Shown: positions 15,696 through 47,379, counted from the stretch's first letter. The stretch is 64,000 nt of DNA from Candidatus Altimarinota bacterium (GCA_963677745.1 OY782391.1:32001-96000); one strand, 5' to 3'. Numbers and translations are program-made. Notes: generated by a model not told the origin, from the letters alone.

Positions 15696-17234
<1,539 letters not shown>

Positions 17235-24137: not shown

Positions 24138-24962
24138 ATGCAAAACATAGAAACAACCTTTACCGAGGGGGACAACATCATCAAAGAATACGCGACATTT
24201 GACCCGGAACGCGAGGAACAAAACAAGATCAACGCCAAAAACGCTGAGCTATTATTCAACGTCCCCTTTTTCCCTTATCAGATTAAGGTGCAAAAAGAGC
24301 ACGGGCTTTCTGATCTTGAAACAAAATTGTTTAGTTTTATTCAGTATTATGCCGGAGGGGGTGGGGAGTTTTACGCCTCAAACCCGAAGTTGGGGCAGTA
24401 TTTCGGCTGTCATAAAGACACGATTAGCACAGCGGTTGGTGTCCTGGCCAAAAAGGGGCTGGTAATAACTGGAATAAAGGTGCTCGGCAACGGGAATTCG
24501 GTCAGAAAATTGAGCGTAGGTGTAAACGCCGAGGGGGGTAGGTATAAACACCTAGGGGGGTCGGTGAAAACACCTAGGGTCATAGGTGAAAAGACCGACA
24601 TATATAAATTAAAAGAAATTAAAGTAAATACATCTCCTATCGGAGATACGGGCAAGGCCCCAAAAGAGACAAAAGAAATTCAAAAAAAACAGGAATACGG
24701 GAAGCCGGAAATTAACCAGATGCTTTCCGCCCTAAAAGCCAAGATCGGGGTCGAGGCATTCGCAGACAGCGGAATTGAAAGAAATATTGCACAGCATTGC
24801 ATCAACCTAATGGGCCGGATCGGTGTTAAGGAATTTTCCCGGCGGCTTGACTTAATTCTTGACGATGCTTTCAAACACAAAAACTGCAACCGCATTCGGT
24901 TCGTTTATTCGGAAATTAAGGGATTCATTGAGCCGGTCCGGCAGACGATCCCATCATTTTAA
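24138..24962 (+). CDS. Phage replication initiator (N-terminal winged HTH)
   Basis: LSDLETKLFSFI...FYASNPKLGQYFGC...IS.AV..L.KKGLV; internal iteron array as in lambda O. Confidence 0.75.
   Translation: MQNIETTFTEGDNIIKEYATFDPEREEQNKINAKNAELLFNVPFFPYQIKVQKEHGLSDLETKLFSFIQYYAGGGGEFYASNPKLGQYFGCHKDTISTAVGVLAKKGLVITGIKVLGNGNSVRKLSVGVNAEGGRYKHLGGSVKTPRVIGEKTDIYKLKEIKVNTSPIGDTGKAPKETKEIQKKQEYGKPEINQMLSALKAKIGVEAFADSGIERNIAQHCINLMGRIGVKEFSRRLDLILDDAFKHKNCNRIRFVYSEIKGFIEPVRQTIPSF
24517..24630 (+). repeat. Putative phage origin: four 22-bp-period iterons plus AT-rich tract
   Basis: TAGGTGTAAACGCCGAGGGGGG / TAGGTATAAACACCTAGGGGGG / TCGGTGAAAACACCTAGGGTCA / TAGGTGAAAAGACCGACA, then TATATAAATTAAAAGAAATTAAAGTAAATA. 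Confidence 0.8.
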
Positions 24963-25981: not shown

Positions 25982-26266
25982 ATGGCAAAACACAAATTCG
26001 AAAAGGGCAATCCAGGTGGACCGGGGAGACCGAAAGGCTCCCTGTCCCTGGTGTCGATGTTAAAAGAAAGGCTTGAAAAAATCCCGGAAGGAAAAAAGAA
26101 AACCTACGCCGAACTTTTTATCGACAAGGTGCTTAAGAAATCCATAGACGACGAAGATGTCCAGGCAATGAGGGACGTTTTGAATCGCGTTGATGGTTTA
26201 CCCAAACAACCTTTGGACGTAGGCGGCGAGGTTAAGTTTATTGTCGAGCTGCATGATCGAGATTAA
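25982..26266 (+). CDS. terS: Terminase small subunit (DUF5681-like)
   Basis: KFEKGNPGGPGRPKGS N-terminal motif and RVDGLPKQ; precedes TerL. Confidence 0.75.
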   Translation: MAKHKFEKGNPGGPGRPKGSLSLVSMLKERLEKIPEGKKKTYAELFIDKVLKKSIDDEDVQAMRDVLNRVDGLPKQPLDVGGEVKFIVELHDRD

Positions 26267-27530
26267 ATTACCTTACAATTTGGATCTGGCTTCCCGACCA
26301 TTTCAGGGCGAGATTTTACGGGATCCGAGGAAAAACAAAGTCCTTATCATTCCGCGACGTCACGGCAAAACAACCCTTGCCATCGCAAAACTGGTCATGG
26401 AGGCAATCATAAACCCGAACAAGATTTATCATTATGTTTTCCCTTTCTACAAACAGGCAAAACAGGCCGTTTGGATCGCCCCGGACATGATTAATAAGCT
26501 GGTCCCGATGGAAGCCGTGTCACAAAAACACCAGGTCGATTTGATTATTTATTTTCATAACGGATCCCAGATTCACGTCAAAGGAGCTGATAACCCGGAT
26601 TCCCTGCGCTCTTTGGATTGTCACGGAGTTATCTTTGACGAGCCGGCCCAGATTAAACCCTCCATTTTCGACGAGATTTATTATCCAATCCTTGCCGCTA
26701 ATGGGGGGTGGAGCTGGTACGTTGGGACACCGAAAGGCAAAAATGCTTTTTATCAGAAATACATCACTTGCCGGAAAGACGAAAAGAATTGGCAAGTTGT
26801 CCACCTCAAAGCTTCAACTGCCGGGCTGTTTACCAAGGAGAATCTGGACAAAATCCGCTCCGAAATGACCCAGAAAGCGTTTGCACAAGAAATGGAATGC
26901 GAGTTTTTGGACGAATGCGGATCCCTGTTTCACCGGGTCCGGGAGAACGTCGGAGATACACTTGCAAGCCCGGAGCCGAACAAACAATATCTGATGGGGG
27001 TTGATCTGGCGAAATACTCAGATTTTACCGACATCACGATCCTTGACCGGCATAGTCACGAGGTTGTTCACCGGGACAGTTTCAACCAAATCGACTGGAA
27101 TTTGCAGAAAGCAAAAATCGAAAGTCTGGCCCGGAGATACAATAACGCAAAAATTCGCATCGATTCAACCGGGGTGGGGGATCCGATCACCGAAGATTTA
27201 ACCCGGGCTGGTTTGATCGTCGAGCCGTACAAATTCAACGCCACCAGCAAAAAGCAATTGCTGGAAAATCTGGTCATCATTTTGGAGGAATCAAAGGTCA
27301 AGATACCCAATGACCCCAATTTAATTGACCAATTAGAGGCCTACGAGGCATCAGTTAATGAAAGGACAGGGTCGGTCAGTTATAACGCGCCTGAGGGGCT
27401 CCACGACGACGCTGTTATCTCCCTGGCGTTAGCCTGTTGGAATCTTGGCCTTAAAATGACGATCGGAGCCGAGGGCAAGAAGTTTAATTTTTCTGTCAGT
27501 TACGACAAATTCGGCAGACCATCAATTTAA
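26253..27530 (+). CDS. terL: Terminase large subunit
   Basis: Walker A RRHGKT, Walker B VIFDE, GTPKG, nuclease domain GVDLA...HDDAVISLALA. Confidence 0.95.
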   Translation: MIEIKLPYNLDLASRPFQGEILRDPRKNKVLIIPRRHGKTTLAIAKLVMEAIINPNKIYHYVFPFYKQAKQAVWIAPDMINKLVPMEAVSQKHQVDLIIYFHNGSQIHVKGADNPDSLRSLDCHGVIFDEPAQIKPSIFDEIYYPILAANGGWSWYVGTPKGKNAFYQKYITCRKDEKNWQVVHLKASTAGLFTKENLDKIRSEMTQKAFAQEMECEFLDECGSLFHRVRENVGDTLASPEPNKQYLMGVDLAKYSDFTDITILDRHSHEVVHRDSFNQIDWNLQKAKIESLARRYNNAKIRIDSTGVGDPITEDLTRAGLIVEPYKFNATSKKQLLENLVIILEESKVKIPNDPNLIDQLEAYEASVNERTGSVSYNAPEGLHDDAVISLALACWNLGLKMTIGAEGKKFNFSVSYDKFGRPSI

Positions 27531-27931
27531 CGTACATCGTCGCAATATTCCTGGTCCTGTTGGACTTGGTTTCGGATAAAATAATAAACCCCGTCTCGAT
27601 TTTCAAAACACCCGTAGGCTTCAAGGATTGTCAGATCGGAAAGATTACTGGCGCACGTTTTATCGACGGCGTCCTGGCTTTTCCAAACAGGTGATGGGCC
27701 GATGTAAACGGGGACTGTTTCAAAAGTGATTGGGTTGATTTCGGCAAACGCTGAAAAACAATTAAAAAGGGTGTCGGCTGAAACTTCCGATACTTTTTTC
27801 AGGCATTCGGGAAACCTTGAGCTGATTTTTTCCATGGGTTTTTGTTCCGGGGGACGGGGCGTTTCGACTGGTGGGGTGCTGCAACCGACCAAAGCAAAAG
27901 CGAGCCCAATCATCAATAAATACATTTTCAT
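27527..27931 (-). CDS. Cys-rich lipoprotein (moron-like)
   Basis: Lipobox LVGC and a Pro-rich linker; opposite strand, between terL and portal. Confidence 0.7.
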   Translation of the reverse strand: MKMYLLMIGLAFALVGCSTPPVETPRPPEQKPMEKISSRFPECLKKVSEVSADTLFNCFSAFAEINPITFETVPVYIGPSPVWKSQDAVDKTCASNLSDLTILEAYGCFENRDGVYYFIRNQVQQDQEYCDDVR

Positions 27932-27985
27932 GTTTTTAAATTATTTGTTGACGGAGGCATAATACATGAATGGTGGCCAAATAGC

Positions 27986-28030
27986 TTGACATTCGACTTT
28001 CTACGAGTATCTTGCGGAATTGGCGCAGGG
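27986..28030 (+). promoter_or_regulatory. Conserved phage promoter, copy 1 (portal)
   Basis: TTGACA-N16-TATCTT-N8-GGCGCAGGG. Confidence 0.7.
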
Positions 28031-28046
28031 TTAAGCATTAGGAAAA

Positions 28047-29936
28047 ATGCCCAACCCATCAAAAGATTTACAGAATCGGATTGTCTCCGAATTACTGGAA
28101 ACCTACAAAAACTATCAGGACTTGAATAAGACCCGAAATTCAAGGCTTTTGGAAATTTACAAGGCTTTTTCTACGTACAAAGAGGAAAGAAAGGCTGATT
28201 ATATGACCGATATTAAGGTCAACAAGGCCCACGAGGTCGTCGAAAGAGTGCTGCCCCGGATCATCGCCAAAAACCCCAGGTGGATTGTCACCCCAAAAAC
28301 AAATGACTTCTACCCCGAGCAAGCGTTACCGGCTTATAGTCCAGCGGATCCGGCCAGTATAGAGGCTTACAACAAAGCTCAGGCAGATAAACGCCAGAAA
28401 ACGACAGATTACAGCCGGGCAATTCAGGATTATTTGTCGTATATCTTCGACGAATACCATTTTGAGGACGCCATCAGGGGATTCGCCAAGCCGGGGATTA
28501 TTTATGGGAAGGCCCGGGCGAAAGTGGGTTACAAATACGAAACAATCAGAAATTTTGTTGAAATTGAGACTGAGGACGGCGAAACAAAGCGCGAAATTAA
28601 GGAGGACGTAACGGGAGAATATCCGTTTATTGACGTCAAGAGCTGGACCGAAACCCTGTCCGACCCAAGATTTAAAAACGTCCAGGATTCGCCGGCCGAA
28701 TTCGAAATTATCAACGGCGTGAGGCTGTCCGAACTGCGCAGAAAGAAAAAGGAATATTTCAACCTGGATAAATTAAAAGACGTCTGCGATCTGAAAGTAA
28801 TTAACGACGATCTGGATAAATACAAACAGCAAGTTATGACCACGGCCGGCATTTCAACAGTCGGCATTTCCAATCCAATTGATAAAAACGGCCTTTCGGT
28901 CCTCAAGGCTTACACGTTATTTGACGAAAAGGACGACGGCAACGACAGACTATTTGAGGCGACCATAATCCCGGATCTGCAAATTTTGATCGGGTGGAAA
29001 GAAATTACAAAAAAGCCGTTTGTCGATTTCAGGGTTTTCGAGGACATTGAGACAAACTTTGATATTGGCTTTGTTGAGCCGATAATTGGTTTGATGGACG
29101 AAATGTCTTTCCAGAAAAACGCTGCAATTAATTTCGTCAACCAGGCGTTAAACCGAACTTTTGTCTGGTCGCCAAACTCAAACATAGATCCCCGGGATCT
29201 GATTTCCAAACCTTACGGGGTTATCCCGACAACCGGCGACGTACAGACCGCCCTTATGAACTGTCAGGAATTACCGATGCGGCAGTTACCAAGCGATTAT
29301 TTCCAGCTCCAAAATGATATTGAACGTCAAATCCAGACCCAGACATTTACCGTTGATACTTCAAATCCGAAGTCACAACAGGCTTTGACCAATACCGCTA
29401 CCGGGGCCAGAATTGAATTTTTTGAATCCAACTCAGTATTGGATCAGGTGCGGAAAAACTTTGAATCCGCCCTGTCTCAGCTCGCTTATTTGCTGCTGCA
29501 AGAAGCTTTCGAAAACATGGGCGATAACATTGTGCTCAAAAAGCTTGGAGCCGAGGAATATTGGGAAATGAACAGGGAAGTTTTGCGAAATGCTGTCACC
29601 CGATACACGATCCAGGTTGAGGTTGGATCCTCAACTTACGATGACATCGCAAACCGCCGGGCCGATGCTATGGCCTTTTGGAATGTTTTATCACAAGCCA
29701 AGGACGCCGGGGAGCCGGTCAAGCTCCGATCCGCTGTTGAGGACATTGCCGCAACCTTTGAAAAGAAAGATTTGGCCAAGTATTACGACAATTCGGTCGA
29801 TATGGCCAAAATTGCAGATACTATGCCGGGAAACCCTGCGAAATTTAATAAGGCATCGATGCCTGAATTACCTCCAACCCCAGCCGAAATGACCCAAAAG
29901 GTCGCCGGTGGTGAGTTGTTAAGCGTTAATCAATGA
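28047..29936 (+). CDS. Portal protein (P22/podovirus-like)
   Basis: 629 aa after terL; TATGARI motif, G.VEPIIGL.DE...KN and I.VEVGSST. Confidence 0.85.
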   Translation: MPNPSKDLQNRIVSELLETYKNYQDLNKTRNSRLLEIYKAFSTYKEERKADYMTDIKVNKAHEVVERVLPRIIAKNPRWIVTPKTNDFYPEQALPAYSPADPASIEAYNKAQADKRQKTTDYSRAIQDYLSYIFDEYHFEDAIRGFAKPGIIYGKARAKVGYKYETIRNFVEIETEDGETKREIKEDVTGEYPFIDVKSWTETLSDPRFKNVQDSPAEFEIINGVRLSELRRKKKEYFNLDKLKDVCDLKVINDDLDKYKQQVMTTAGISTVGISNPIDKNGLSVLKAYTLFDEKDDGNDRLFEATIIPDLQILIGWKEITKKPFVDFRVFEDIETNFDIGFVEPIIGLMDEMSFQKNAAINFVNQALNRTFVWSPNSNIDPRDLISKPYGVIPTTGDVQTALMNCQELPMRQLPSDYFQLQNDIERQIQTQTFTVDTSNPKSQQALTNTATGARIEFFESNSVLDQVRKNFESALSQLAYLLLQEAFENMGDNIVLKKLGAEEYWEMNREVLRNAVTRYTIQVEVGSSTYDDIANRRADAMAFWNVLSQAKDAGEPVKLRSAVEDIAATFEKKDLAKYYDNSVDMAKIADTMPGNPAKFNKASMPELPPTPAEMTQKVAGGELLSVNQ

Positions 29937-30208
29937 GTATTTTTGAATATTTAAAGGACAGGAACAGTCAAAAGACGTTTGAGGAAACTCAGTCCCAGGC
30001 TGAAAAGATGTTTACCTCCCAAAAGGAGGCGATCAAGGCAATCGCGGATTCTACCGGTTACGCCGAGATCCGGGCTTTCTGGGAAAGGGAAAAGGACGCT
30101 GCAATTCAAAGATTTTCAACCGCTGCCGTTGATGATCCGACCGCCCGGGCGATGTTTACGCTGGCAGACAGATTTTTGAAATTTCTGGACGTGCGCATTA
30201 AAGGCTGA
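29933..30208 (+). CDS. Small head-module protein
   Basis: ATGA-coupled to portal, a typical podovirus position. Confidence 0.65.
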   Translation: MSIFEYLKDRNSQKTFEETQSQAEKMFTSQKEAIKAIADSTGYAEIRAFWEREKDAAIQRFSTAAVDDPTARAMFTLADRFLKFLDVRIKG

Positions 30209-30209
30209 C

Positions 30210-30263
30210 GCTTGGTGGGGACAGGTTTTTATCCTAAACCTGCGCCTATCCTCCCCACCAGGC
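30210..30263 (+). ncRNA. Bulged stem-loop RNA element, candidate antisense regulator
   Basis: 12-bp outer stem, 7-bp inner stem, loop TTATCCT and 9-nt bulge CGCCTATCC; complementary motifs occur in several gene leaders. Confidence 0.55.
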
Positions 30264-30306
30264 ATGAGCCCTTAAAAGCTCCGATACTAAATAACCCACA
30301 AAAAGA

Positions 30307-30969
30307 ATGGCAGACACAAGTCAGTCTCCCGTTGCTGGGGAACAACCCGATAGGGATTCCACCACCAAGGCAACAGGGAAAGACCAAGACGAAAGTCAGG
30401 CGGAAACCAACGCTAAAAACATGGTAGAGATCGACGGCGAAAAAGTCTCCCTGGACCAGGTAAAAGAATGGAAAAAGGGACACATGATGGAAGCCGACTA
30501 TCGCAGAAAGACCCAAGAACTAGCCGAAGCGAAAAGGGAAATTGCCCGAGCCAAACAGGCCGGGGAAACCTCCCCAAGAGCCAAGGAAATGGATCCAGAG
30601 GTCAAGAAAGCAATAGAGATTCTCAAGGAGGCAGGCATGGCCACGAAAGATGATCTGCTGGCAATGAAAATCCAGGAGGAGGACCAGAAAGCATTTAGAA
30701 AGCTTTTAAAGTCAAATCCTGAATTAATCCCCCATAAAAAAGCCCTACAACAAATCGGGCTTACCGATAACCGGGCATGGGAGGACATCGCCAAAGATTA
30801 TGGATTCCTCAAAGATTCCAAACTGGAAAAAGCCAAAGCCGCAAAGCCGATTACTGGGGCAAGAATGGTCCCGGGTTCAGAAACCAAAGCGGTGGACATC
30901 GCAAAGATGACGCCCAAGGAATACGAATCCTGGAAAAAACAAAATTTAGGAGCGCGAAAGTGGCAATAA
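30307..30969 (+). CDS. Capsid scaffolding protein
   Basis: Acidic disordered N-terminus, EIDGEKVSL...ADYRRKTQELAE and C-terminal MTPKEYE.W; precedes the capsid gene. Confidence 0.8.
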   Translation: MADTSQSPVAGEQPDRDSTTKATGKDQDESQAETNAKNMVEIDGEKVSLDQVKEWKKGHMMEADYRRKTQELAEAKREIARAKQAGETSPRAKEMDPEVKKAIEILKEAGMATKDDLLAMKIQEEDQKAFRKLLKSNPELIPHKKALQQIGLTDNRAWEDIAKDYGFLKDSKLEKAKAAKPITGARMVPGSETKAVDIAKMTPKEYESWKKQNLGARKWQ

Positions 30970-31020
30970 ACAGGCGAAAACTTAGGATAAAGATTTACTA
31001 AATAATTTTTATCTTACAAT

Positions 31021-32229
31021 ATGGCTAATACGCTATCTGATGGCTTCAAGACAGTCTGGGCCAAGGAATATGAAACAATATTCTACAAGCTGAACGTCGC
31101 AAAACAAGTTTGTGATATGAGCTTCAAACCAGATCTCGCAAAAGGAAACACCCTGAAAAGAGTTTACCGCTCCGATCAGTCCGGCAATCTCCAAACTTAC
31201 GTTCGGGGAACTGCAATCACAATCAATGATGTTACCGATACCGCCGAATCCCTCACAATTTCCGCTCAGTTCGCTGATGGAATTTACAGAGACGATTTCG
31301 ACGCTATCCAGGACAACTACGATTTCGCCGCTTCTTATGGTAAGGACATCGCTACCTATTGCTCAAACCAGCTCGATGCTGACGTTTTGGGCGACTGGGA
31401 TCAGGCGACTTCTACTGTTGATGATGGCTCAATCGGTGGTACGTCCGGCAATGGTATCACCCTGACAACTTCCAATGTTCTCAAGGTGGTCGCTGCTGCA
31501 AAAAAGAAACTCAAGAAACAAAATGTCCCTGCCACCGAATTATTCGGTGTAATTTCGCCAGAATTTGAACAGGTACTTATCGAATATGGTGCTGGCCGCG
31601 ACACCAAGATGGGCGACGATGCAAACGAAGGGGGTAAAATCCTGAAATTTTACGATTTCGATTTGTATGTCTCCAATATGCTCGGCACTTCTGCCGTGCT
31701 GCAAATGGCTTCCGATCCCGGAGCCGGTGAAACCGTTGTCATCAATGGCGTTACCTTTACTGCTGCCAATCCTATTGGTGCTGTTGCCGGTAACTTCCTT
31801 GTTGGTACGTCTGCCGACGCTTCGCGTTTGGCCCTCGCAACCTTGATAAATGCTCCTGGAACTACAACCGCCGGTGGTGTTGCCGTTTCCGCTGCAAATC
31901 AAAGAAAGCTCCGCAATTGCAAAGCTACTGACGATGCTGCTTTGAACACCATGACCCTTGATTACAAAGGCTTGGGCGTTCTGACAGTATCGGAAACTTT
32001 GGCTGCTGCTGCTGATATCTGGACCCCTGCATTACAGAAACAGCATTGTCTGTTTGGTCGTAAGGGTGCTATTACGGCCGTTGTCCAGAAAGATCCGACC
32101 CCGGAAGTGAAAGAAGTGTCCGACAAGCTCGGTAAAAACGTGCTGGTTGGCATTCTCTATGGTTGGAAAACTTATGCCGACGGAGCCAAGGAATTGGTCG
32201 ATGTCGCATTGGATTCCTCAGCGTTCTAA
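31021..32229 (+). CDS. Major capsid protein (P22 coat-like) with inserted domain
   Basis: Position after scaffold, MANTL start, GNTLK, G.I..FYDFDLYVSN and C-terminal LYGWKT. Confidence 0.85.
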   Translation: MANTLSDGFKTVWAKEYETIFYKLNVAKQVCDMSFKPDLAKGNTLKRVYRSDQSGNLQTYVRGTAITINDVTDTAESLTISAQFADGIYRDDFDAIQDNYDFAASYGKDIATYCSNQLDADVLGDWDQATSTVDDGSIGGTSGNGITLTTSNVLKVVAAAKKKLKKQNVPATELFGVISPEFEQVLIEYGAGRDTKMGDDANEGGKILKFYDFDLYVSNMLGTSAVLQMASDPGAGETVVINGVTFTAANPIGAVAGNFLVGTSADASRLALATLINAPGTTTAGGVAVSAANQRKLRNCKATDDAALNTMTLDYKGLGVLTVSETLAAAADIWTPALQKQHCLFGRKGAITAVVQKDPTPEVKEVSDKLGKNVLVGILYGWKTYADGAKELVDVALDSSAF

Positions 32230-32240
32230 TTATCAACCGA

Positions 32241-32272
32241 GTGAGGGGGCGTGATAGGACGCCCAGTCTCAC
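32241..32272 (+). promoter_or_regulatory. Intergenic hairpin with GATAGG loop
   Basis: GTGAG..GGGCGT-GATAGG-ACGCCC..CTCAC. Confidence 0.5.
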
Positions 32273-32289
32273 CTAACCAAAATAAATAT

Positions 32290-32739
32290 ATGGCTAAAGT
32301 TATCGGAACAGACGTCAAACTTGTCGGGAAAGCCGTTTTCAAGGCCAACGACAGATTTGTCACGTCCCCAGATGGTAGAGTTATGGGGGGCAAAATGACC
32401 GTCACCACCAAGGCGACGGCAACTGCCATCACCCTGACCGCTGCTGAGGTTTTAGGAGGTTTAATCCTCCAGGATCCAGCCGGCGGAGCCTGCACGACCA
32501 ATCTCCCAACAGCGGCTTTATTGTCTGCTGCCCTGGGGGGGGCGGTTGCTGGCGATTCAGTTGAATTCACCATCAGGAATACCGCTGATGCTGGCGAGAC
32601 CATTACTGTTGCTGCCGGAACAGGTGGCGGCACTTCTGGGACTATGACCATCGCTCAAAGCAACACCAAGCGTTTTGTGATTATATTCACTTCCAAAAGT
32701 GCATATACAGTCTATTCGCTCGGTACGATTGTTCATTAG
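32290..32739 (+). CDS. Capsid decoration-like protein
   Basis: TLTAAEVLGGLI...NLPTAA...FTIRN..ITVAAGTG beta-rich protein after the capsid gene. Confidence 0.6.
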   Translation: MAKVIGTDVKLVGKAVFKANDRFVTSPDGRVMGGKMTVTTKATATAITLTAAEVLGGLILQDPAGGACTTNLPTAALLSAALGGAVAGDSVEFTIRNTADAGETITVAAGTGGGTSGTMTIAQSNTKRFVIIFTSKSAYTVYSLGTIVH

Positions 32740-32802
32740 TTTGCAATGGAGGGGGCTTAAAAAAGCCCTTTCCTTGGAGGCTAATCACTAATCAAAAAAA
32801 AC

Positions 32803-33168
32803 ATGGCAGATGATTACAAAATAATGAAAGTTTGGCACAAAGAACGCCAGGCGGAAATGTGGATCAAGGATTTCGCTTTTAATCCTGAAATTCACAAAAA
32901 ATTAAGCGAACTTTTCCCGAAAGATCACATTTACACCGTCCAAATGGAGGCTCTAAATGCAAAGCTCAAAAAATCACTTGAAAGCGAACAAAAACCAGTA
33001 CATAGTGAGCCCGTACAGCAAGAAACGGCTGAAACTCCCGACTACGAAAAAATGAAAATGCCCGATTTAAGGGCTTTGGCAAAATCATTGGGAATCAAGA
33101 CCCAATTCACGGACAAGAAAACAGACATTTTGGCGAAAATTAAGGATACAAACGCAACTAATCCTTAA
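32803..33168 (+). CDS. Protein with C-terminal Rho-N/HeH-like domain
   Basis: YEKMKMPDLRALAKSLGIK...KKTDILAKI. Confidence 0.6.
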   Translation: MADDYKIMKVWHKERQAEMWIKDFAFNPEIHKKLSELFPKDHIYTVQMEALNAKLKKSLESEQKPVHSEPVQQETAETPDYEKMKMPDLRALAKSLGIKTQFTDKKTDILAKIKDTNATNP

Positions 33169-33180
33169 TCCAAGTCAACA

Positions 33181-33966
33181 ATGTATATTGAAAAGTTCCA
33201 AAACGTAAACGGATCAACAATAGCGGTCACGGGAACGGCGACCAATATCTTTGATTTAATCAATACGGCCCAAGCCACCACCCTTACCAACGCAGGGTTT
33301 TCAAGCGGCGTAAATGCAATCACAATCCAGCCGGCAGGGGGCGATATTCGGGTCACTTTTGATGGCACGACCCCGACAGCGACGGCCGGTTTTCTGATTA
33401 AAGGTAATTCGACTGTTTATCTGCCAAATATTCCATTAAAAGCCCTCAAATTAATTCGAACGGGTGGATCCAATGTGAGCTGTTCAATTTTGGTTGGTAA
33501 ATCTGATATGGGCGAAAGTATGTCGGTCAGTACGCCCCAATCTGGACCCCAAACAGTCATTCGGGCGGCTGCAAATTTACCTCAAACAGCCCAGACCCCT
33601 TATTTTACAGTTACCGGGGGCAGATGCAGAATCAAGATCTATGGTGAGGTGACGACAATTGTCGAAAATACCGGGGCGGTAAATATCGATCTTTGGTCCA
33701 ATCCGGCAAACGGCACGGCAGACGCGGCTTTGTGCGCTGTTGTAAATGCTGCCAACGCTGCTGTTGGAAGCTCAATAAACATCACCGGGACGCCTGCAAA
33801 TGCGGCAATTATCAATCCATCAAGTACAGTTTTGGACCAGGCAGATTGGGTTGTTGTCCCAGCCGGAACAATTGACCTCAAGACCTCAGCATCAAAAACA
33901 GGCGCGACAAAGTGGGTTGTTCAATATGAGCCCATCGACGTTGGAGCGAGCATTGCAGCCGCTTAA
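33181..33966 (+). CDS. Putative virion structural protein (two beta-rich domains)
   Basis: T/A/G-rich; IRVTFDGTTPTATAGFLI motif; located in the head module. Confidence 0.55.
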   Translation: MYIEKFQNVNGSTIAVTGTATNIFDLINTAQATTLTNAGFSSGVNAITIQPAGGDIRVTFDGTTPTATAGFLIKGNSTVYLPNIPLKALKLIRTGGSNVSCSILVGKSDMGESMSVSTPQSGPQTVIRAAANLPQTAQTPYFTVTGGRCRIKIYGEVTTIVENTGAVNIDLWSNPANGTADAALCAVVNAANAAVGSSINITGTPANAAIINPSSTVLDQADWVVVPAGTIDLKTSASKTGATKWVVQYEPIDVGASIAAA

Positions 33967-33985
33967 ATTTAACTAAATTCGTCCA

Positions 33986-34213
33986 ATGGATAACCAAACA
34001 ACCGTCCAAAGAATCCTGAGATCCGAGCTGTCCTTTTACGGGACGATTATCGCTGCTGTTATCTCGATTGCCGCCTTTTATTTTGGGGTGACAAATCAGA
34101 TAAATTTAATTGCCCAAAAGCTTGACACTCACCTTGAGGCAACAGCTTATATGCCGCTTAAACTAACGGAAATTGGCGAAAAGGTGGCGGTACTTATTAA
34201 CCAAAATAAATGA
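33986..34213 (+). CDS. Small single-TM protein (holin-like?)
   Basis: One TM helix plus a short coiled coil. Confidence 0.5.
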   Translation: MDNQTTVQRILRSELSFYGTIIAAVISIAAFYFGVTNQINLIAQKLDTHLEATAYMPLKLTEIGEKVAVLINQNK

Positions 34214-34428
34214 GCCATCAGCGACTAAATGAATATCTCTACGATTTGGAGCGCGTCGAGGACGTCAGAAACAAACTTCCACCAGGCGACAGACGCGGCG
34301 AAGTGGATAAAGTCACAAGGCGGATCCGGGAAATGATCTGCGAGGCTGACGGGGCAATAAGTCAGCACCGAAACGTCGAAAATATGCTGGCGCGCATCAG
34401 AAACTTAATAAATATCGTCTTAAAATGA
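34210..34428 (+). CDS. Phage hypothetical protein
   Basis: ATGA overlaps on both sides. Confidence 0.6.
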   Translation: MSHQRLNEYLYDLERVEDVRNKLPPGDRRGEVDKVTRRIREMICEADGAISQHRNVENMLARIRNLINIVLK

Positions 34429-35087
34429 GCACATTATCAAGTCTGGTTTCAGACCTCAGGAATTACATAAAATCGGACCCCAACGATAAAATTTGGGGAA
34501 GTGCAATAAAAGAATCGGCGATAAATTCCGCTTATTTCCAGATCCAGAAAGACGGAGGTTTCAGATGGCCCCAGAATGAAGCGTCAACAACTCAAGTCAC
34601 AGTCGGAGGAACGGCGGAATATGCTTTGCCAACCGACTTTATCAGGCTAGAAATGGTCCAGTTTTCCGATACTTTGGGGCAACTCACCCCGACGACAAAA
34701 CAGGCTGCCATGAGAAATGGCACGACCAGCCAGGGCAGACCATCAAATTACTATCTTTGGAATCAGAAACTTGGCTTTTATTCTACCCCGGACACGGCCT
34801 ACCCGGCAAACATTTTATACCGAAAACGCCTGGCGACATTAACCGGCGTCCAGGATTCACTTTTTCCGTCCGATTTCGATAACGCGATCGTCCGATATGC
34901 GGCTTATATCCTTTGGTCAACGACCAAAAACCAGCCCAAAACAGGGCAGGCGTTGGACGATTACCGCCTGATGTTGGGAATGTTAAAAGACGCTTATTTA
35001 TATCAAGACACCGCCATGATTTCATTCCCTTATCAACGGGGAGTGTCCAGGCGGAATAAATTTGACCCCAAAATACTAGATGCGTAA
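34425..35087 (+). CDS. Head-tail adaptor (tail tubular protein A-like)
   Basis: TL..L...LR, GTAEYALPTDF, GRP..Y, .PD.AY and AIVRYAAY pattern. Confidence 0.75.
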   Translation: MSTLSSLVSDLRNYIKSDPNDKIWGSAIKESAINSAYFQIQKDGGFRWPQNEASTTQVTVGGTAEYALPTDFIRLEMVQFSDTLGQLTPTTKQAAMRNGTTSQGRPSNYYLWNQKLGFYSTPDTAYPANILYRKRLATLTGVQDSLFPSDFDNAIVRYAAYILWSTTKNQPKTGQALDDYRLMLGMLKDAYLYQDTAMISFPYQRGVSRRNKFDPKILDA

Positions 35088-37140
35088 AGTTTTCGACAAT
35101 TTGATCGGGGGACTTTCCAAAAGAGAGCCTCAACTTGTTGGAGACAACCAGTTTGTTGAGCTCCAAAACTTTTTTTATAACCAAGATAAAAGGCTCCAAA
35201 CACGTTACGGATATATGCGCTATTTCCCGATCGTTCCCGATACTTGCGTTCAGGTCGATTCGGTTGATGCGATTTCCGATTATGTCGCTTCCGATGATGC
35301 AACCAACGTGGTCACGGGCGCACCAATCCGGGGGGCCGGATCCCTGAGTTTCGACATAGACGTGAGTTTGTCGGCTACTGACCAGGCGACGGTCACCAAA
35401 TCCACCCTAGCGGTGAATATTTCCGCTGCCAAAGACTATTTCGGAATGTGGGTTAATGTCCCAACCGGGTTTAATACCAATTTGACTGCTGTTAAATACA
35501 GGCTCGGATCTGATGCCGCCAATTACTACGAATGGACCTTGCCGGCAATTACTGAGGCGACCAGCCAATATTTAAAACTGAATTTCAGCGCGGCGACAGT
35601 TGTCGGGACGCCGGTTGACGCTGCCATCACTTATGAACGCTTCCAAATGACGTATTCGGCCGGGTATTTGGATCAACTCGGGATCAGGTTTGATGCGTTA
35701 ATCTGCTATTCAGCCAGCTACAACAAGCCGGTTACCAGTTATTTTTTCAACAGGGACGAGGCCAGCGGAACAAATATCACAATTTGCGTTGCCGGTGACA
35801 ATATGTTTCTTTTTAACGAGGCGAATTTGTGCTGGGAAAGAATCCAGTCGAGCCTTAGCCAGTTTGAAACGGCGGTCGGAAAAACAACCCATCGCACACG
35901 TTGGGAATTTTTCGCTTATAACGGGTCCGGGACAATGGAGGTCGGAATGTGTAATGGCATCGATGATTATCGCGTCTGGGACGGTGTAACGGTTACCAGC
36001 TATCCGGCAATGCCTAAATGCCGATATTTTCTGGTATTTGAGGACACTATTTTCGGGGCCGGAGCAGACGCCAACCCATTGACTGTTTATTACACAAACG
36101 CCAACCCTGCCAACGCCCAAACAATTAATACCAACAATGTCGATGCCGGAAACGAGGCCGATGGACGGATTAACGGACTTTTCCCCTTGGCCCAGTCGGT
36201 GATGATCGGCAAGACGGAAAGAATTTACTATTATGACGCTGTAAATGCTGTCTGCCTTCCCCTGGATTCCCAAAATGGAATGTTTAGCCAAAGAGCAATC
36301 AGAGAAGTTGGCAACGGAATCCTTTTACAAACAAAATCGGGAGTTGATAATTTGGCCCAAAAAAGAGCGGTGACTGGAGCGGCGGCAGTTGAAAGCGAGG
36401 GTTATTCCAGCGATCTTGAAAGCTTTTTTAACTCGATTTTATACAACAATTTAAACGCCAGTTCAGGGCTTTACATAAAGGAAAACAATAATTATCACAT
36501 AAGCATAGATACGGACGGGGACAATAAGCCCGACAGGACTTTGGTTTATAGCTCGCTGATTGGGAAAACTTGGTCGCAATACATTTACCCGTCGGCCTAT
36601 ACCTACGGAGTTTATATCGACCCGACCAATTCCTACCATTATTTGATGTGTTCGGCGACCGCTGGGCTTATCTGGGAAGTGGAAAGCGGCTGGGACGATG
36701 ACGGATCCCCAATAAACTTCTGGTTTAAGACCAAAGAGCATAATTTCCAGACCCCTTATGATTGGAAAGATTTTGAGGCAGTAACCCTTTCAGGACTGAA
36801 AAATATCGGGTCCGAAATGCTGATCGACGTTTTGGTTGATGGCGAGATTTTGTATTCCGCAACGCTGGACGATTCGTTTTTGACCTCAACCAGCTCGGCC
36901 GTCACCATCGGAAGTCACCCGATTGGACTTGAAACCGTTGGTGGGGGATTGGCAGAGAGCCCGGAGGTCGCATTATACCCATATAAGATGCGATTGGGGG
37001 CGGAATTGTTCGCGTCTGGGCAAACTATCCAGATTCAAGGGACATCGGATTCTAAACCGCTTGTTTTGACTTTAGACAGAATTGAGGTCAAATACCAAAA
37101 CACTACCGATGATATGTTTCCGGCAATAAATTTCGCATAG
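35080..37140 (+). CDS. Tail nozzle / P22 gp10-like stabilisation protein
   Basis: GGL start, beta-propeller-like repeats and WDDDGSPI...KTK; follows the adaptor. Confidence 0.7.
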   Translation: MRKVFDNLIGGLSKREPQLVGDNQFVELQNFFYNQDKRLQTRYGYMRYFPIVPDTCVQVDSVDAISDYVASDDATNVVTGAPIRGAGSLSFDIDVSLSATDQATVTKSTLAVNISAAKDYFGMWVNVPTGFNTNLTAVKYRLGSDAANYYEWTLPAITEATSQYLKLNFSAATVVGTPVDAAITYERFQMTYSAGYLDQLGIRFDALICYSASYNKPVTSYFFNRDEASGTNITICVAGDNMFLFNEANLCWERIQSSLSQFETAVGKTTHRTRWEFFAYNGSGTMEVGMCNGIDDYRVWDGVTVTSYPAMPKCRYFLVFEDTIFGAGADANPLTVYYTNANPANAQTINTNNVDAGNEADGRINGLFPLAQSVMIGKTERIYYYDAVNAVCLPLDSQNGMFSQRAIREVGNGILLQTKSGVDNLAQKRAVTGAAAVESEGYSSDLESFFNSILYNNLNASSGLYIKENNNYHISIDTDGDNKPDRTLVYSSLIGKTWSQYIYPSAYTYGVYIDPTNSYHYLMCSATAGLIWEVESGWDDDGSPINFWFKTKEHNFQTPYDWKDFEAVTLSGLKNIGSEMLIDVLVDGEILYSATLDDSFLTSTSSAVTIGSHPIGLETVGGGLAESPEVALYPYKMRLGAELFASGQTIQIQGTSDSKPLVLTLDRIEVKYQNTTDDMFPAINFA

Positions 37141-37148
37141 ATTTTCCC

Positions 37149-37194
37149 TAGACAATGGGGAAAAAGATAGTATCTTCACGAGATAGGCGCAGGG
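37149..37194 (+). promoter_or_regulatory. Conserved phage promoter, copy 2 (tail fibre)
   Basis: TAGACA-N16-TATCTT-N9-GGCGCAGGG. Confidence 0.65.
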
Positions 37195-37210
37195 ATAAAA
37201 ATTCGATAAA

Positions 37211-39664: not shown

Positions 39665-39665
39665 T

Positions 39666-40001
39666 ATGAAACAATACTTTGCAAAACACAAAAACGGAAA
39701 CATCACGGTCTGTAACTGGCCTATCAAAGAAACAGGGGCTGATTCTTACGAATTTGAGATCAACGAACTGGATCTAAAAGACGTCCAAAATGGCGAGAAG
39801 GATTGGCGCATCGAGGGTGGAAAGTTGACGGTTGTTGCATCAACCAGAAAGGCAGACTTTTTAGCCGCCCAGAAAGCGGCTCAAGATGCTCAAATTACCA
39901 TGGAGGAACAGGAAAAAAATCGGAAATTAGAGCTTGTCCAAAAGATTACCGAAGGGAAGGCAAGCCCAGCAGAACAACAAGAATTCGTTAATTTAATCTA
40001 A
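39666..40001 (+). CDS. Putative tail fibre assembly chaperone
   Basis: Small protein directly after the fibre; WRIEGGKL followed by a helical C-terminus. Confidence 0.5.
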   Translation: MKQYFAKHKNGNITVCNWPIKETGADSYEFEINELDLKDVQNGEKDWRIEGGKLTVVASTRKADFLAAQKAAQDAQITMEEQEKNRKLELVQKITEGKASPAEQQEFVNLI

Positions 40002-40003
40002 AA

Positions 40004-42865: not shown

Positions 42866-42870
42866 AAACC

Positions 42871-44427: not shown

Positions 44428-44658
44428 AAACAGGAAAATTGCCAAAATAGACAGGGTCAGATAAACGGCGATGGAGTGTTTGCGGATCCATTTTATCAGT
44501 TTTTCATGTTTCTTGGAAAAGGCCGGCCAATTCTTTTCGGCGTGCTGTTCGGTCAGCGACCAAGCGATTATTAGCAGAATTACACAAATCAGCCCAAGGG
44601 CCAATGACGGGAAAAAGCCTGTAAAAATGCCGACGCCTGCCGCGAATATATATTCCAT
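44398..44658 (-). CDS. Small membrane protein (moron cluster)
   Basis: Two hydrophobic segments; likely ATG at 44658. Confidence 0.55.
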   Translation of the reverse strand: MEYIFAAGVGIFTGFFPSLALGLICVILLIIAWSLTEQHAEKNWPAFSKKHEKLIKWIRKHSIAVYLTLSILAIFLFLLAANSFQN

Positions 44659-44668
44659 GGTTTTTTGA

Positions 44669-45088
44669 TTAAATATCGTCGTCTGAATCGTCATCATCAA
44701 TTTGGGTCTGCCCCTCGCGCCCGTTATACCTCACCAGGGCTCGATAAGCCGCGTCCTCGATCATGTTTGGGAGCCAAGTAGCTGAAAGATGGTTTAAAAT
44801 GATTAAACCGATAATCCACCACAAATTAGCCCAGATCCAGCCAAATACAATAAACAGGATTCCAACAACAAAAGCCCCGAGCCTGCTCCAACCCGTGTCA
44901 GTCCCAATATCGATGCTGCCGCCGGTCCAGTCTAAAATCATGGGTTGAAAGATGGCAACGGCAAAAATGAAGCCGACGATCCATAACAAAGCTTTCCAGG
45001 CTGGTTTTGTATTTTCGAACAACCATTTAATTTCGTTGGCAATTCTTTTGAAAATCCCGATTTTTTTTGGTTCGACTTCTTTGGTCAT
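44669..45088 (-). CDS. Membrane protein (moron cluster)
   Basis: Two to three TM segments; ATG at 45088 overlaps the upstream stop (ATGA). Confidence 0.6.
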   Translation of the reverse strand: MTKEVEPKKIGIFKRIANEIKWLFENTKPAWKALLWIVGFIFAVAIFQPMILDWTGGSIDIGTDTGWSRLGAFVVGILFIVFGWIWANLWWIIGLIILNHLSATWLPNMIEDAAYRALVRYNGREGQTQIDDDDSDDDI

Positions 45089-45315
45089 TCGCTTTCTATT
45101 AATTGTCTTTCGTCCTGGTGATGATAATGCTCTACCCGGGGAGTTCCCTGATCTTTCAATGCTTTCGCGACCGATTTCCATTTATCAACCTCGTGACAGA
45201 GTTCCTTTATGCGTTCCTCGTAAGAATAGATCAGAAAGCCAATAATTCCTAAAAAACCACCACAAACAACCCAGAAAAAAGGGTGAGCAATAATGTCTCT
45301 AAGTGTAAGGGTCAT
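45085..45315 (-). CDS. Single-TM coiled-coil protein (moron cluster)
   Basis: TM helix plus a short coiled coil. Confidence 0.55.
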   Translation of the reverse strand: MTLTLRDIIAHPFFWVVCGGFLGIIGFLIYSYEERIKELCHEVDKWKSVAKALKDQGTPRVEHYHHQDERQLIESE

Positions 45316-46253: not shown

Positions 46254-46298
46254 TTGCATTTTAAGAATTCCAGCGTATCTTTCGGAATTGGCGCAGGG
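46254..46298 (+). promoter_or_regulatory. Conserved phage promoter, copy 3 (before lysis module)
   Basis: TTGCAT-N16-TATCTT-N8-GGCGCAGGG. Confidence 0.65.
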
Positions 46299-47375: not shown

Positions 47376-47379
47376 ATAT

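What the first reader, a model, noticed from the sequence alone, without database searches (positions are those of the whole stretch)
30210..30263. Candidate multi-target regulatory RNA: bulged hairpin whose loop and bulge are complementary to leaders of many structural genes
Seen: the intergenic element folds into a 12-bp stem (30210-21/30252-63), a 7-bp inner stem, loop TTATCCT and 9-nt bulge CGCCTATCC. The reverse complement of 30226-30251 is GGATAGGCGCAGGTTTAGGATAAAAA. Same-strand matches lie within about 50 nt upstream of start codons: tail fibre GATAGGCGCAGG-GATAAAAA (37182-37201); capsid AGGCG-aaaac-TTAGGATAAA (30972-30991, matching the bulge and the loop region at the exact spacing but not CAGGT); 33181 gene GGCG-aaaat-TAAGGATA (33132-33148); portal GGCGCAGG..TTAGGAAAAA (28022-28047); decoration gene GATAGGaCGC in a hairpin loop (32253-32262); 46313 gene GGCGCAGG (46290). 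Weaker cases precede terL (26220-26236), the nozzle (~35049) and 42871 (~42848). Known: P4 CI RNA and P1 C4 RNA are processed stem-loops that use bulge and loop to recognise bipartite targets. Inference: this is an analogous RNA that co-ordinates morphogenesis genes in cis or trans. I do not know of such a system in a CPR prophage late operon.
Basis: partly seen in the sequence, partly recalled or inferred. Interest (0 to 1): 0.9.

Follow-up and report, generated by a model that had tools for sequence, protein, structure and literature searches.

The report
Hairpin complementary to phage late leaders
A very stable, conserved RNA hairpin between the portal and scaffold genes of a prophage shows in its loop and bulge the exact complement of a short motif that opens several late-gene messages, and the two change together in related phages, which points to an undescribed RNA-based control of virion genes.

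Summary
The hairpin is real at 30210-30263: 12-bp outer stem, 7-bp inner stem, 7-nt loop, 9-nt 3' bulge; -38.5 kcal/mol, z -5.5. In a relative that is 74% identical in DNA, the hairpin lies in the longest perfectly conserved stretch (77 nt).

Its loop and bulge are complementary to leaders of the portal, capsid, tail-fibre and 46313 genes (4 of 24 leaders; P about 0.001-0.006 against shuffled cores). The decoration, nozzle and 42871 matches are not above chance. The 33181 block is conserved but weak.

Three targets are near-identical sigma-70-like promoters. In them the motif begins 8-9 nt after the -10 hexamer, at the predicted 5' end of the mRNA.

Related phages give the decisive evidence. 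A hairpin at the same position occurs in 27 of 34 close relatives. Its stems covary, with many G.U pairs on the + strand. In 15 of 22 the loop is complementary to the phage's own capsid leader, although the motif differs between clades (five sequence classes). Swapping hairpins between phages abolishes the fit (0 of 20,000 permutations).

No Rfam family matches and no RNA data exist. Best reading: an antisense loop that pairs with late-mRNA leaders. It works like P1 c4 / P4 CI but is not a member of that family. The main rival is one DNA site bound by a protein.

The parts
30210..30263 (+). HP1, the bulged hairpin. Outer stem 30210-21/30252-63, inner stem 30222-28/30236-42, loop 30229-35 (TTATCCT), 3' bulge 30243-51 (CGCCTATCC). 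A basal extension reaches 30204-30269. It starts 2 nt after the stop codon of the 91-aa ORF.
   Evidence: Fold. Lies inside a 77-nt run of perfect identity (30197-30273) with a relative that is 74% identical overall. The same architecture with different stems is seen in L094.
29933..30208 (+). Conserved 91-aa ORF downstream of the portal gene. HP1 lies in its 3' untranslated region.
   Evidence: ORF list. No Pfam or PHROG hit. In relatives a homologous reading frame ends just before the hairpin.
27986..28040 (+). Portal promoter-like site and leader motif M: -35 TTGACA 27986-91, -10 TATCTT 28008-13, M GGCGCAGG 28022-29. The block 28017-40 is conserved.
   Evidence: best sigma-70-like match in 27500-47400; 24-nt identity run in the relative, whose -35/-10 spacer differs.
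30972..30991 (+). Capsid-leader motif M. AGGCG (30972-76) matches the bulge and TTAGGATAAA (30982-91) matches the loop. The 5 nt between them do not match the inner stem.
   Evidence: Best-scoring window of the whole prophage for the loop probe. 25-nt identity run 30967-30991 in the relative.
37149..37201 (+). Tail-fibre promoter-like site and M: -35 TAGACA 37149-54, -10 TATCTT 37171-76, GATAGGCGCAGG 37182-93, GGATAAAAA 37193-37201.
   Evidence: The relative L004 keeps and extends the complement to 14 nt while its -35 and -10 hexamers differ.
46254..46297 (+). Promoter-like site before gene 46313, which lies upstream of the amidase gene: TTGCAT 46254-59, TATCTT 46276-81, M GGCGCAGG 46290-97.
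   Evidence: One of only three copies of the extended motif in the 1.34-Mb genome.
33132..33148 (+). M-like block GGCGAAAATTAAGGATA before gene 33181. Its second half is held in a local hairpin, TTAAGGAT/ATCCTTAA. Doubtful target.
   Evidence: 28-nt identity run 33122-49 in the relative. Duplex energy is not above background.
30266..30281 (+). HP2, a small candidate hairpin GAGC...GCTC directly 3' of HP1. Its 5' arm overlaps the basal extension of HP1.
   Evidence: Seen by eye in 16 relatives, with arm variants GAGTC/GATTC, GAGCC/GGTTC and GAGTT/AACTC. RNAalifold on the MAFFT alignment gave no consensus.

Best explanation
HP1 is an RNA hairpin made on the + strand as the 3' untranslated end of the portal / 91-aa-ORF message. 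Its single-stranded apical loop, and in this clade also its 3' bulge, base-pairs with a short motif M. M lies at or near the 5' end of late-gene leaders: portal, capsid, tail fibre and the 46313/lysis unit here. Pairing can happen in cis, because M lies both upstream and downstream of HP1 on the same strand, or in trans if HP1 survives as a stable decay product. Through it one RNA couples the translation or stability of several virion-gene messages.

Shown: the structure, its conservation, stem covariation with G.U pairs, and complementarity that co-varies with the leaders across phage clades.

Inferred: that the hairpin acts as RNA on RNA, and that M is the transcript's 5' end (from its position after -10 hexamers).

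Not known: the sign of the effect. My guess is repression or thresholding of late messages, as with P1 c4. Protection of 5' ends, as in FasX-ska, is the alternative.
For: 1. Structure and selection. MFE is -38.5 kcal/mol, z -5.5. The longest perfect run in 5.5 kb of alignment at 74% identity is the 77 nt around HP1.

2. A hairpin of <=-22 kcal/mol at the same place (-690 to -870 from the capsid ATG) occurs in 27 of the 34 closest non-redundant relatives examined.

3. In an alignment of 10 of these, 20 pairs are predicted and 13 have compensatory double changes. 90.5% of cells are paired against 71.7% in shuffles (0/500). The covariation score is 0.631 against 0.249 (0/500), and slid controls give 41-56%.

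4. That alignment has 26 G.U cells against 6 A.C cells, so the + strand RNA is the folded species.

5. Of the 22 hairpins with a loop of >=6 nt, the loop's duplex with the phage's own capsid leader is in the top 1.5% of all + strand windows of its locus in 15, and is the single best window in 10. The same test on 29 more distant relatives gives 2 below 0.03, the chance level.

6. The motif differs by clade while the fit is kept:
- TTAGGATAAA with loop TTATCCT (window, L004)
- GCTATGGG with CCCATAGC (7 phages)
- GCTGTGGAA with TTCCACAGC (3 phages)
- AAGGGGCA with TGCCCCTT (2 phages)
- a GGGGAGGG tract with CCCCCTCC, an imperfect purine/pyrimidine match (L106)

7. Portal leaders behave the same way: GGCGCAGG with CCTGCGCC here, and GGCACAGA with TCTGTGCC in L095.

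8. Pairing each loop with another phage's leader loses the fit. The mean is -13.8 for own pairs against -9.4 +/- 0.67, and 0 of 20,000 permutations reach it.

9. The tail-fibre promoter of L004 has different -35 and -10 hexamers but keeps M, with 14 nt complementary to HP1.

10. All 7 promoter-type M sites of this clade start 3-9 nt after a -10-like hexamer. Over all classes 18 of 38 sites do, against 21% of 3000 random positions.

11. In the capsid leader the matching positions are those that are unpaired in HP1 (bulge and loop), and the mismatching 5 nt face the inner stem.
Against: - There is no expression data. No run on record as RNA holds the locus, so transcript ends, processing and pairing are all unobserved.
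- Complementarity between two places on one strand is formally the same as an inverted copy of one double-stranded site. Loop/leader covariation therefore does not by itself separate RNA pairing from a co-evolving DNA-binding protein.
- A test for G.U over A.C in the flanks of the matches was uninformative (36 against 47).
- 7 of the 22 hairpins with long loops show no significant fit to their own capsid leader. These include the next-closest relatives L094 (0.08), L127 (0.045), L095 and L117. L095 and L127 fit the portal leader instead.
- In the window, the 24 leaders as a group are not enriched (p 0.17), and three of the four good targets are paralogous promoter copies.
- Some phages carry 2-3 tandem M copies about 16 nt apart, which also looks like a protein-binding array.
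- The pattern scan finds no more sigma-70-like sites than in shuffles (30 against 26.5), so the promoter calls rest on the shared motif and not on the scan.
- The motif classes are few (five), and members of a class are related, so the number of independent co-changes is about 5-7, not 15.
Confidence: 0.55

Rival explanations
1. M is a double-stranded DNA site, an operator or late-promoter element around +1, bound by a phage-encoded protein. HP1 happens to carry one more copy in inverted orientation. Loop and leaders change together because all copies track the specificity of the protein.
For: M sits just downstream of -10 hexamers, where repressors act. The promoters look constitutive for a sigma-70-type polymerase (TTGACA-16-TATCTT), so a prophage would need to keep them shut. 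Some phages have tandem M copies. The G.U test on the flanks gave no support for RNA pairing. The prophage encodes an HTH protein (24138-24962) and a KilA-N protein (45402-46232).
Against: M is not palindromic in any class. The inverted copy always lies in the apical loop of a hairpin whose stems covary and hold 26 G.U against 6 A.C cells, so the selection is on a + strand RNA fold and not on duplex DNA. In the window the spacing between the two half-matches varies between targets: 0, 5 and 8 nt in the tail-fibre, capsid and portal leaders, against 5 nt in HP1. That suits flexible pairing better than a rigid protein site. The capsid-leader copies mostly lack a -10 hexamer.
Confidence: 0.2
2. 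HP1 is only an mRNA-end element: a 3' stabiliser, an RNase III-type processing site or an unusual terminator between the portal and scaffold units. Its complementarity to the leaders has no function of its own.
For: HP1 lies in an intergenic position right after a stop codon. Its two stems separated by a one-sided internal loop resemble, from my recall, T7 RNase III sites. A second small hairpin and T-rich tracts follow in several relatives.
Against: This reading does not explain why the loop sequence, which should be free to vary in such elements, is invariant within clades (CCA.AGC in 10 of 10). It also does not explain why the loop matches the phage's own capsid leader in 15 of 22 phages across five different motifs. 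No T-run follows HP1 in the window, and the terminator scan does not list it.
Confidence: 0.12
3. HP1 acts as single-stranded DNA, for example as a priming, replication or packaging signal, with the loop imitating the template strand of the M sites.
For: The hairpin would also form in single-stranded DNA, and its loop has the sequence of the template strand at the M promoters (sequence logic only).
Against: Frequent G.U (G.T) pairs in the stems are poorly tolerated in DNA hairpins. The element lies inside the late transcription unit, far from the terminase and replication genes. No comparable system is known to me.
Confidence: 0.03
4. The matches are chance, or a by-product of purine-rich Shine-Dalgarno-like leaders meeting a pyrimidine-rich loop.
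For: Loops are pyrimidine-rich and leaders purine-rich. Complementary 7-mers are more common on the + strand than same-sense ones (137 against 52).
Against: 12-14-nt exact matches occur. Shuffled-core P is 0.001-0.006. Own-versus-foreign leader permutation gives 0 of 20,000. The negative control in distant relatives is at chance. M lies 18-39 nt from the start codons, too far for a Shine-Dalgarno role.
Confidence: 0.03

Closest known systems
P1/P7 c4 antisense RNA (immI operon)
   Same: A phage-encoded structured RNA that acts by base pairing through exposed single-stranded regions on messages of its own phage. [quoted passage not shown] From recall: its two loops recognise a bipartite target, target copies lie on both sides of the RNA gene, and P1 and P7 differ by matched changes in RNA and target. 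This parallels the clade-specific loop/leader classes here.
   Different: No match to any Rfam model. HP1 lies in the head-gene module, not in an immunity operon. Its targets are portal, capsid, tail-fibre and lysis-unit leaders, not an antirepressor. Outside the window's clade it has a single loop rather than two. Processing and trans action are unknown.
P4 CI RNA (recalled, no call)
   Same: As I recall, this is a stem-loop RNA cut from the same transcript that carries its targets, with complementary sequences both upstream and downstream of it. The order M - HP1 - M here is the same layout.
   Different: As I recall, CI causes premature termination of an early and replication operon in the lysogen. 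Here no terminator is evident at the targets and the genes are late ones. No family match was found.
STnc6030 antisense RNA of Salmonella prophage BTP1
   Same: A prophage RNA that base-pairs with the message of a virion gene (tailspike), lowers its stability and translation, and gives superinfection exclusion (review PMC12197685, passages read). It is precedent for RNA control of structural-gene messages.
   Different: It is a cis-antisense transcript from the opposite strand of one gene. HP1 is co-oriented with its targets, pairs through an 8-14-nt loop or bulge seed, and has several targets.
FasX small RNA and ska mRNA (Streptococcus pyogenes)
   Same: An exposed pyrimidine-rich segment pairs with the 5' end of a message and protects it from decay (PMC4691137, passages read). 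This is a model for what pairing at a 5'-terminal M could do.
   Different: It is a host-encoded stand-alone sRNA, unrelated in sequence, and the direction of the effect here is unknown.
Intergenic RNase III processing hairpins of T7-like phages (recalled)
   Same: Long irregular hairpins with a one-sided internal loop between late genes of podophages. The gene order portal - scaffold - capsid is the same.
   Different: Those hairpins are not known to carry loops complementary to gene leaders. No single-subunit RNA polymerase gene was found in three relatives' records, although that search also rang in none of its control genomes.

Membership tests
C4-type / CI-type phage antisense RNAs (Rfam families) | Sequence and structure match to the curated covariance model | tested here: not met
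   cmscan of the window at gathering score gave only two tRNAs. 29900-30600 at E<=10 gave only weak microRNA-like noise. Eight relatives' loci at E<=1 gave one microRNA-like hit at E 0.098. That C4-type models are in Rfam 15 is my recollection.
C4-type / CI-type phage antisense RNAs | Exposed single-stranded regions complementary to a target on the phage's own messages, bipartite in c4 | tested here: met
   The loop and bulge match the capsid leader at the same 5-nt spacing as in HP1. In the other clades only one loop takes part.
C4-type / CI-type phage antisense RNAs | Matched changes of RNA and target between related phages | tested here: met
   Five loop/leader classes. Own-versus-foreign permutation gives 0 of 20,000.
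C4-type / CI-type phage antisense RNAs | Lies in an immunity operon and controls an antirepressor or early operon in the lysogen | tested here: not met
   HP1 lies between the portal / 91-aa ORF and the scaffold gene, with the terminase, capsid and tail genes around it.
C4-type / CI-type phage antisense RNAs | Processed to a small stable RNA that acts in trans | not testable with these tools
   No run on record as RNA holds the locus.
Intrinsic (factor-independent) terminator | G+C-rich hairpin followed directly by a run of T | tested here: not met
   The sequence after 30263 is ATGAGCCCTTAAAAGC. HP1 is not among the 26 terminator-like sites of the scan.
RNase III processing site | Cleavage by RNase III within an irregular hairpin of about 20 bp | not testable with these tools
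   The shape is compatible: 12 + 7 bp with a one-sided 9-nt internal loop. No cleavage data exist.

The most novel reading that the evidence does not exclude
HP1 is the specificity determinant of an RNA-based immunity or exclusion system that acts on late genes. A stable hairpin RNA, made from leaky late transcription in the lysogen, pairs with the 5'-terminal motif of every late message, both its own and that of an incoming related phage, and shuts them down. The sharply different but internally matched loop/leader classes among close relatives would then be heteroimmunity groups, as with P1 and P7, but operating on morphogenesis and lysis genes in phages of ultra-small bacteria.
Probability: 0.2. 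Interest if true: 0.85.

Novelty: new variant of a known kind. Interest (0 to 1): 0.72.

Why it matters
Late-gene control in tailed phages is textbook protein work: activators, antiterminators and sigma factors. A hairpin inside the head-gene cluster whose loop recognises the leaders of the portal, capsid, tail-fibre and lysis units would be an RNA layer of control over virion assembly.

The element is conserved with matched changes in at least 15 uncultured phages. The window's genome is small (1.34 Mb), and four of the ten genome-collection relatives of the capsid gene lie in Patescibacteria-type MAGs. Almost nothing is known about gene regulation in such organisms.

The loop/leader classes give ready-made compensatory pairs for reporter tests, so the idea can be tested directly. 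If the classes are specificity groups, they would also give a sequence-readable marker of cross-immunity among uncultured phages.

Tried and rejected
- Rfam at gathering and relaxed thresholds, on the window and on eight relatives, gave nothing relevant.
- Public runs: no RNA holder is listed, so read laying was not used, because contigs cannot show RNA ends.
- Portal protein search in genome contigs found no relative.
- Degenerate DNA patterns for the hairpin found only the already known relative's contig plus two chance hits in coding DNA without any hairpin: L002 and L174.
- The G.U-versus-A.C test on the flanks of the matches was uninformative.
- The test of leader enrichment by orientation with crude ORF calls was noisy: 29 of 137 complementary against 5 of 52 same-sense 7-mers in leaders. 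I do not lean on it.
- RNAalifold on the five hairpins of the window's own clade (A3), and on the HP2 region (A4), gave no consensus because MAFFT put the arms out of register.
- Single-subunit RNA polymerase (PF00940) was absent from three relatives' records, but the family rang in no control genome either, so this is weak.
- The idea that M is a T7-type promoter was dropped, because the sites have ordinary -35 and -10 hexamers.
- The idea that M is a Shine-Dalgarno site or a start codon of tiny upstream ORFs was dropped. The distance to the ATG is 18-39 nt, and three motif classes contain no start codon.
- An invertible segment bounded by HP1 and the capsid leader was dropped. The repeats are only 8-12 bp, there are several direct copies, and no invertase gene lies nearby.
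- The decoration, nozzle and 42871 'targets' were rejected.
- Four paper searches for a prior description found none (listings only). Supplementary files were not consulted.

Full report
THE ELEMENT

- outer stem of 12 bp: 30210-21 with 30252-63
- inner stem of 7 bp: 30222-28 with 30236-42
- 7-nt loop TTATCCT
- one-sided 9-nt bulge CGCCTATCC on the 3' side

With short flanks the MFE is -38.5 kcal/mol (z -5.48), and none of 200 dinucleotide shuffles folds as well. The hairpin begins two bases after the stop codon of a 91-aa ORF that follows the portal gene, and it lies 44 nt upstream of the scaffold gene's start codon.

The neighbourhood is a podophage-like late module on the + strand:
- large terminase 26241-27530
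- portal 28047-29936
- scaffold 30307-30969
- major capsid protein 31021-32229
- tail and fibre genes up to about 44.4 kb
- a KilA-N gene, gene 46313 and an amidase
- an integrase on the other strand at 48363-49241

Host genes (Obg, Pth, TyrRS, RecG) end at about 23.5 kb. The genome is one contig of 1.34 Mb. No Rfam family matches the hairpin.

THE MATCHES IN THE WINDOW

I scored the 26-nt core (30226-30251) against 24 leaders (-50..+3) with RNAduplex.
- Four leaders fall in the top ~1% of all windows of the phage: tail fibre -28.3, portal -23.1, capsid -21.2 and gene 46313 -20.8.
- terL, at -17.9, is in the top 3%.
- Genes 33181, 32251 (decoration), 35080 (nozzle) and 42871 are at background.
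- The 24 leaders as a group are not shifted (p 0.17).
- Against 1000 dinucleotide shuffles of the core, four or more leaders at <=-20 occurred with P 0.006, and the sum of the best four with P 0.001.

WHAT THE TARGETS ARE

The portal, tail-fibre and 46313 sites are near-copies of one promoter-like unit. Each has a -35-like hexamer (TTGACA, TAGACA or TTGCAT), 16 nt of unrelated spacer, GTATCTT, 8-9 nt, and then GGCGCAGGG. This extended unit occurs three times in the whole 1.34-Mb genome, always on the + strand and always 23-29 nt before a start codon. The portal site is the best sigma-70-like match in 27500-47400, although the scan as a whole finds no more such sites than in shuffles.

The motif, which I call M, therefore begins about where transcription should start. 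The capsid site has no such promoter. There, AGGCG and TTAGGATAAA match the bulge and the loop with the same 5-nt gap as in the hairpin, and the five bases between them do not match the inner stem.

THE CLOSEST RELATIVE

An IMG/VR contig (L001/L004) has a portal protein 84% identical and a capsid protein 92% identical to the window's. It is 74% identical in DNA over 27900-33400. The longest perfect run in that alignment is 77 nt, at 30197-30273, which is the hairpin.

Other non-coding blocks that stand out are the capsid leader (30967-30991), the portal leader (28017-28040) and a block before gene 33181 (33122-33149).

The relative's tail-fibre promoter has other hexamers (TTGCGA ... TATAGT) and another spacer. 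It still keeps GATAGGCGCAGGGATAAA, and its exact complement to the hairpin extends to 14 nt.

- the TTAGGAAAAA part of the portal match

WIDER RELATIVES

The capsid protein has 330 homologues at E<=1e-10. With an alignment of 32 of them I fetched 80 viral, 10 genomic and 80 metagenomic loci. Four of the ten genomic loci lie in Patescibacteria-type MAGs. Of all the loci, 108 are non-redundant and have at least 880 nt upstream of the capsid gene.

Among the 34 closest (capsid identity 43-92%), 27 have a hairpin of <=-22 kcal/mol at -690 to -870 from the capsid start, directly after the small ORF. Of these, 22 have an apical loop of at least 6 nt.

The stems differ completely between phages but stay paired. 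In an alignment of ten:
- 20 pairs are predicted, and 13 of them show compensatory double changes
- 90.5% of cells pair, against 71.7% in shuffles (0 of 500)
- the covariation score is 0.631 against 0.249 (0 of 500)
- sliding the partner by 1-3 columns drops pairing to 41-56%

G.U pairs fill 26 cells, and in one column 9 of 10 sequences have one. Only 6 cells are A.C, which is what a G.U pair on the opposite strand would look like here. So the fold is selected in a + strand RNA. The loop core CCA.AGC is invariant in these ten.

In L094 (capsid 75% identical) the window's whole architecture recurs with other stem sequences. Only one base of the loop differs, and the bulge keeps GCGCCTAT.

LOOP AND LEADER CHANGE TOGETHER

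In an unbiased search I looked for the longest exact complement between each capsid leader (-70..-1) and the 1.25 kb upstream of it. For WIN, L004, L005, L006, L008, L011, L012, L018, L098, L099, L124 and L125 the top match, or one tied for top, falls in the hairpin loop. These matches are 8-12 nt long.

The motif is not the same in all phages:

| Class | Leader motif | Loop | Phages |
|---|---|---|---|
| A | TTAGGATAAA | TTATCCT | window, L004 |
| B | GCTATGGG(A/G)A | CCCATAGC | L005, L006, L008, L010, L011, L098, L126 |
| C | GCTGTGGAA | TTCCACAGC | L018, L124, L125 |
| D | AAGGGGCA | TGCCCCTT | L012, L099 |
| E | GGGGAGGG tract | CCCCCTCC (imperfect match) | L106 |

Class C differs from class B by an A-to-G change in the leader that is matched by a T-to-C change in the loop.

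Portal leaders follow suit:
- GGCGCAGG with CCTGCGCC in the window
- GCGCAGGGG, after TATAAT plus 4 nt, with AAACCTGCGCC in L127
- GGCACAGA with TCTGTGCC in L095, two changes, both matched

Quantitatively, the loop probe's duplex with the phage's own capsid leader is in the top 1.5% of all + strand windows of its own locus in 15 of 22 phages, and is the best window of all in 10. The seven without a significant fit are L094, L095, L117, L127, L016, L017 and L032.

In 29 more distant relatives (capsid <=47% identical) that have some hairpin with a long loop, only 2 fall below 0.03, which is chance. This serves as a negative control.

Pairing each loop with its own leader gives a mean of -13.8 kcal/mol, against -9.4 +/- 0.67 for random re-pairings. 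None of 20,000 permutations reaches the observed value, and the class-by-class matrix is dominated by its diagonal. Because members of a class are related, the number of independent co-changes is about five to seven.

WHERE M LIES

In classes A and D, M starts 3-9 nt after good -10 hexamers, for example TATAAT + 7-9 nt + AAGGGGCA(A/G) in L099. Over all classes, 18 of 38 M sites have such a hexamer at that distance, against 21% of 3000 random positions. Most capsid-leader copies of classes B and C have none.

M is 18-39 nt from the start codon in portal, capsid and fibre leaders. In class B phages a third copy overlaps the start codon of a gene about 4.36 kb upstream of the capsid gene. Some phages have two or three tandem copies before the capsid gene.

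So M is a leader element. It is often the predicted 5' end of a late message, and sometimes it lies inside a longer transcript.

READING

Three facts matter most. The element is a selected + strand RNA fold. It displays the complement of M in its unpaired part. The two co-vary.

The simplest account is base pairing between the hairpin RNA and late-gene leaders. This could happen in cis, because M lies 2.2 kb upstream and 0.7 kb downstream on the same strand. It could happen in trans if the very stable hairpin outlives its message.

The pairing is inferred, not observed: no run on record as RNA holds this locus. The sign of the effect is open. There are two candidates:
- Repression or thresholding of late messages. 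This fits the P1 c4 precedent (PMC8546580, passages read) and BTP1 STnc6030, which acts on a tailspike message (PMC12197685, passages read).
- Protection of 5' ends, as with FasX and ska (PMC4691137, passages read).

The sharp, internally matched motif classes among close relatives suggest specificity groups. That is the basis of my most novel reading.

RIVALS

An inverted copy of one double-stranded site for a co-evolving protein would give the same loop/leader covariation. It would also fit M's operator-like place after the -10 hexamer and the tandem copies. Against it:
- the copy always lies in the loop of an RNA-type fold rich in G.U pairs
- M is not palindromic in any class
- the spacing between the two half-matches varies among the window's targets (0, 5 and 8 nt)

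My G.U-versus-A.C test on the flanks of the matches could not decide between the two readings (36 against 47).

A plain processing or 3'-stabilising hairpin does not explain the loop. There is no T-run for an intrinsic terminator.

I put RNA-RNA pairing at 0.55, the DNA-site reading at 0.2, a plain mRNA-end element at 0.12, and the rest below 0.05 each.

COMPARISON WITH WHAT IS KNOWN, AND NOVELTY

The element works like the c4 / CI type of phage antisense RNA in three ways: exposed regions, targets on both sides of it, and matched changes between phages. It is not a member of that family. No covariance model matches. It lies in the head-gene module, not an immunity operon. Its targets are morphogenesis and lysis-unit leaders.

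Four full-text searches found no description of such an element (listings only). A 2025 review of phage small RNAs, of which I read passages, names no RNA that targets several late leaders.

I rate it a new variant of a known kind. It rests on comparative evidence alone, and compensatory loop/leader swaps can test it directly.

Noticed in passing
window 30266-30281; relatives' loci: A small second hairpin (GAGC...GCTC) directly follows HP1. In 16 relatives its arms vary in step (GAGTC/GATTC, GAGCC/GGTTC, GAGTT/AACTC, AGAGC/GCTCT). Its 5' arm overlaps the basal 3' arm of HP1, so the two folds may exclude each other. T-rich tracts follow in several relatives. The conserved TGAGC could instead be a -35 element for the scaffold gene.
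   Followed up: partly
window 33110-33180: Before gene 33181, inside the 3' end of the HNH-like ORF 32803-33168, a 28-nt block is identical in the 74%-identical relative. It resembles the capsid-leader motif, and its TTAAGGAT pairs locally with ATCCTTAA 13 nt downstream. The loop of this local hairpin differs between the two phages.
   Followed up: partly
window 32240-32275: A hairpin lies directly after the capsid gene's stop codon (-18.7 kcal/mol). The relative has a different hairpin at the same place (-21.5, loop TTCG). It is likely a message-end structure for the abundant capsid mRNA.
   Followed up: partly
L005:64, L006:846, L011:5652, L013:2071, L098:5594: In class B phages a third copy of the leader motif (AAAGCTATGG) overlaps the ATG of a gene about 4.36 kb upstream of the capsid gene; its product begins M-D-I-K-Q-A-A-I-K-E in L013 and L098. 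If transcription starts at the motif, this message would be nearly leaderless.
   Followed up: no
L124:946-975, L125:820-865, L012:6354-6375, L099:3905-3936: The capsid leaders of some relatives carry two or three tandem copies of the motif, about 14-17 nt apart.
   Followed up: no
window 27527-27931 (- strand): A 134-aa ORF on the opposite strand lies between the terminase and portal genes, with no Pfam hit. The portal promoter-like site lies just beyond its 5' end, so this may be a divergent unit.
   Followed up: no
window 23500-57200: Prophage layout. Host genes end with RecG at 23453. Late genes on the + strand run to about 48.4 kb. The integrase (48363-49241) and some 25 small ORFs, including a Rad52-like gene (56061-56732), lie on the - strand. 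tRNA-Leu is at 15696-15782 and tRNA-Ala at 62687-62762. Attachment sites were not looked for.
   Followed up: no
window 26180-26250 and L004:5629-5660: The terL leaders of the window (TAGGCGGCGAGGTTAAG) and of the relative (GGGATAAAG) each show partial complementarity to HP1, but to different parts of it: the bulge and the loop respectively. The window's leader scores -17.9 (top 3%).
   Followed up: partly
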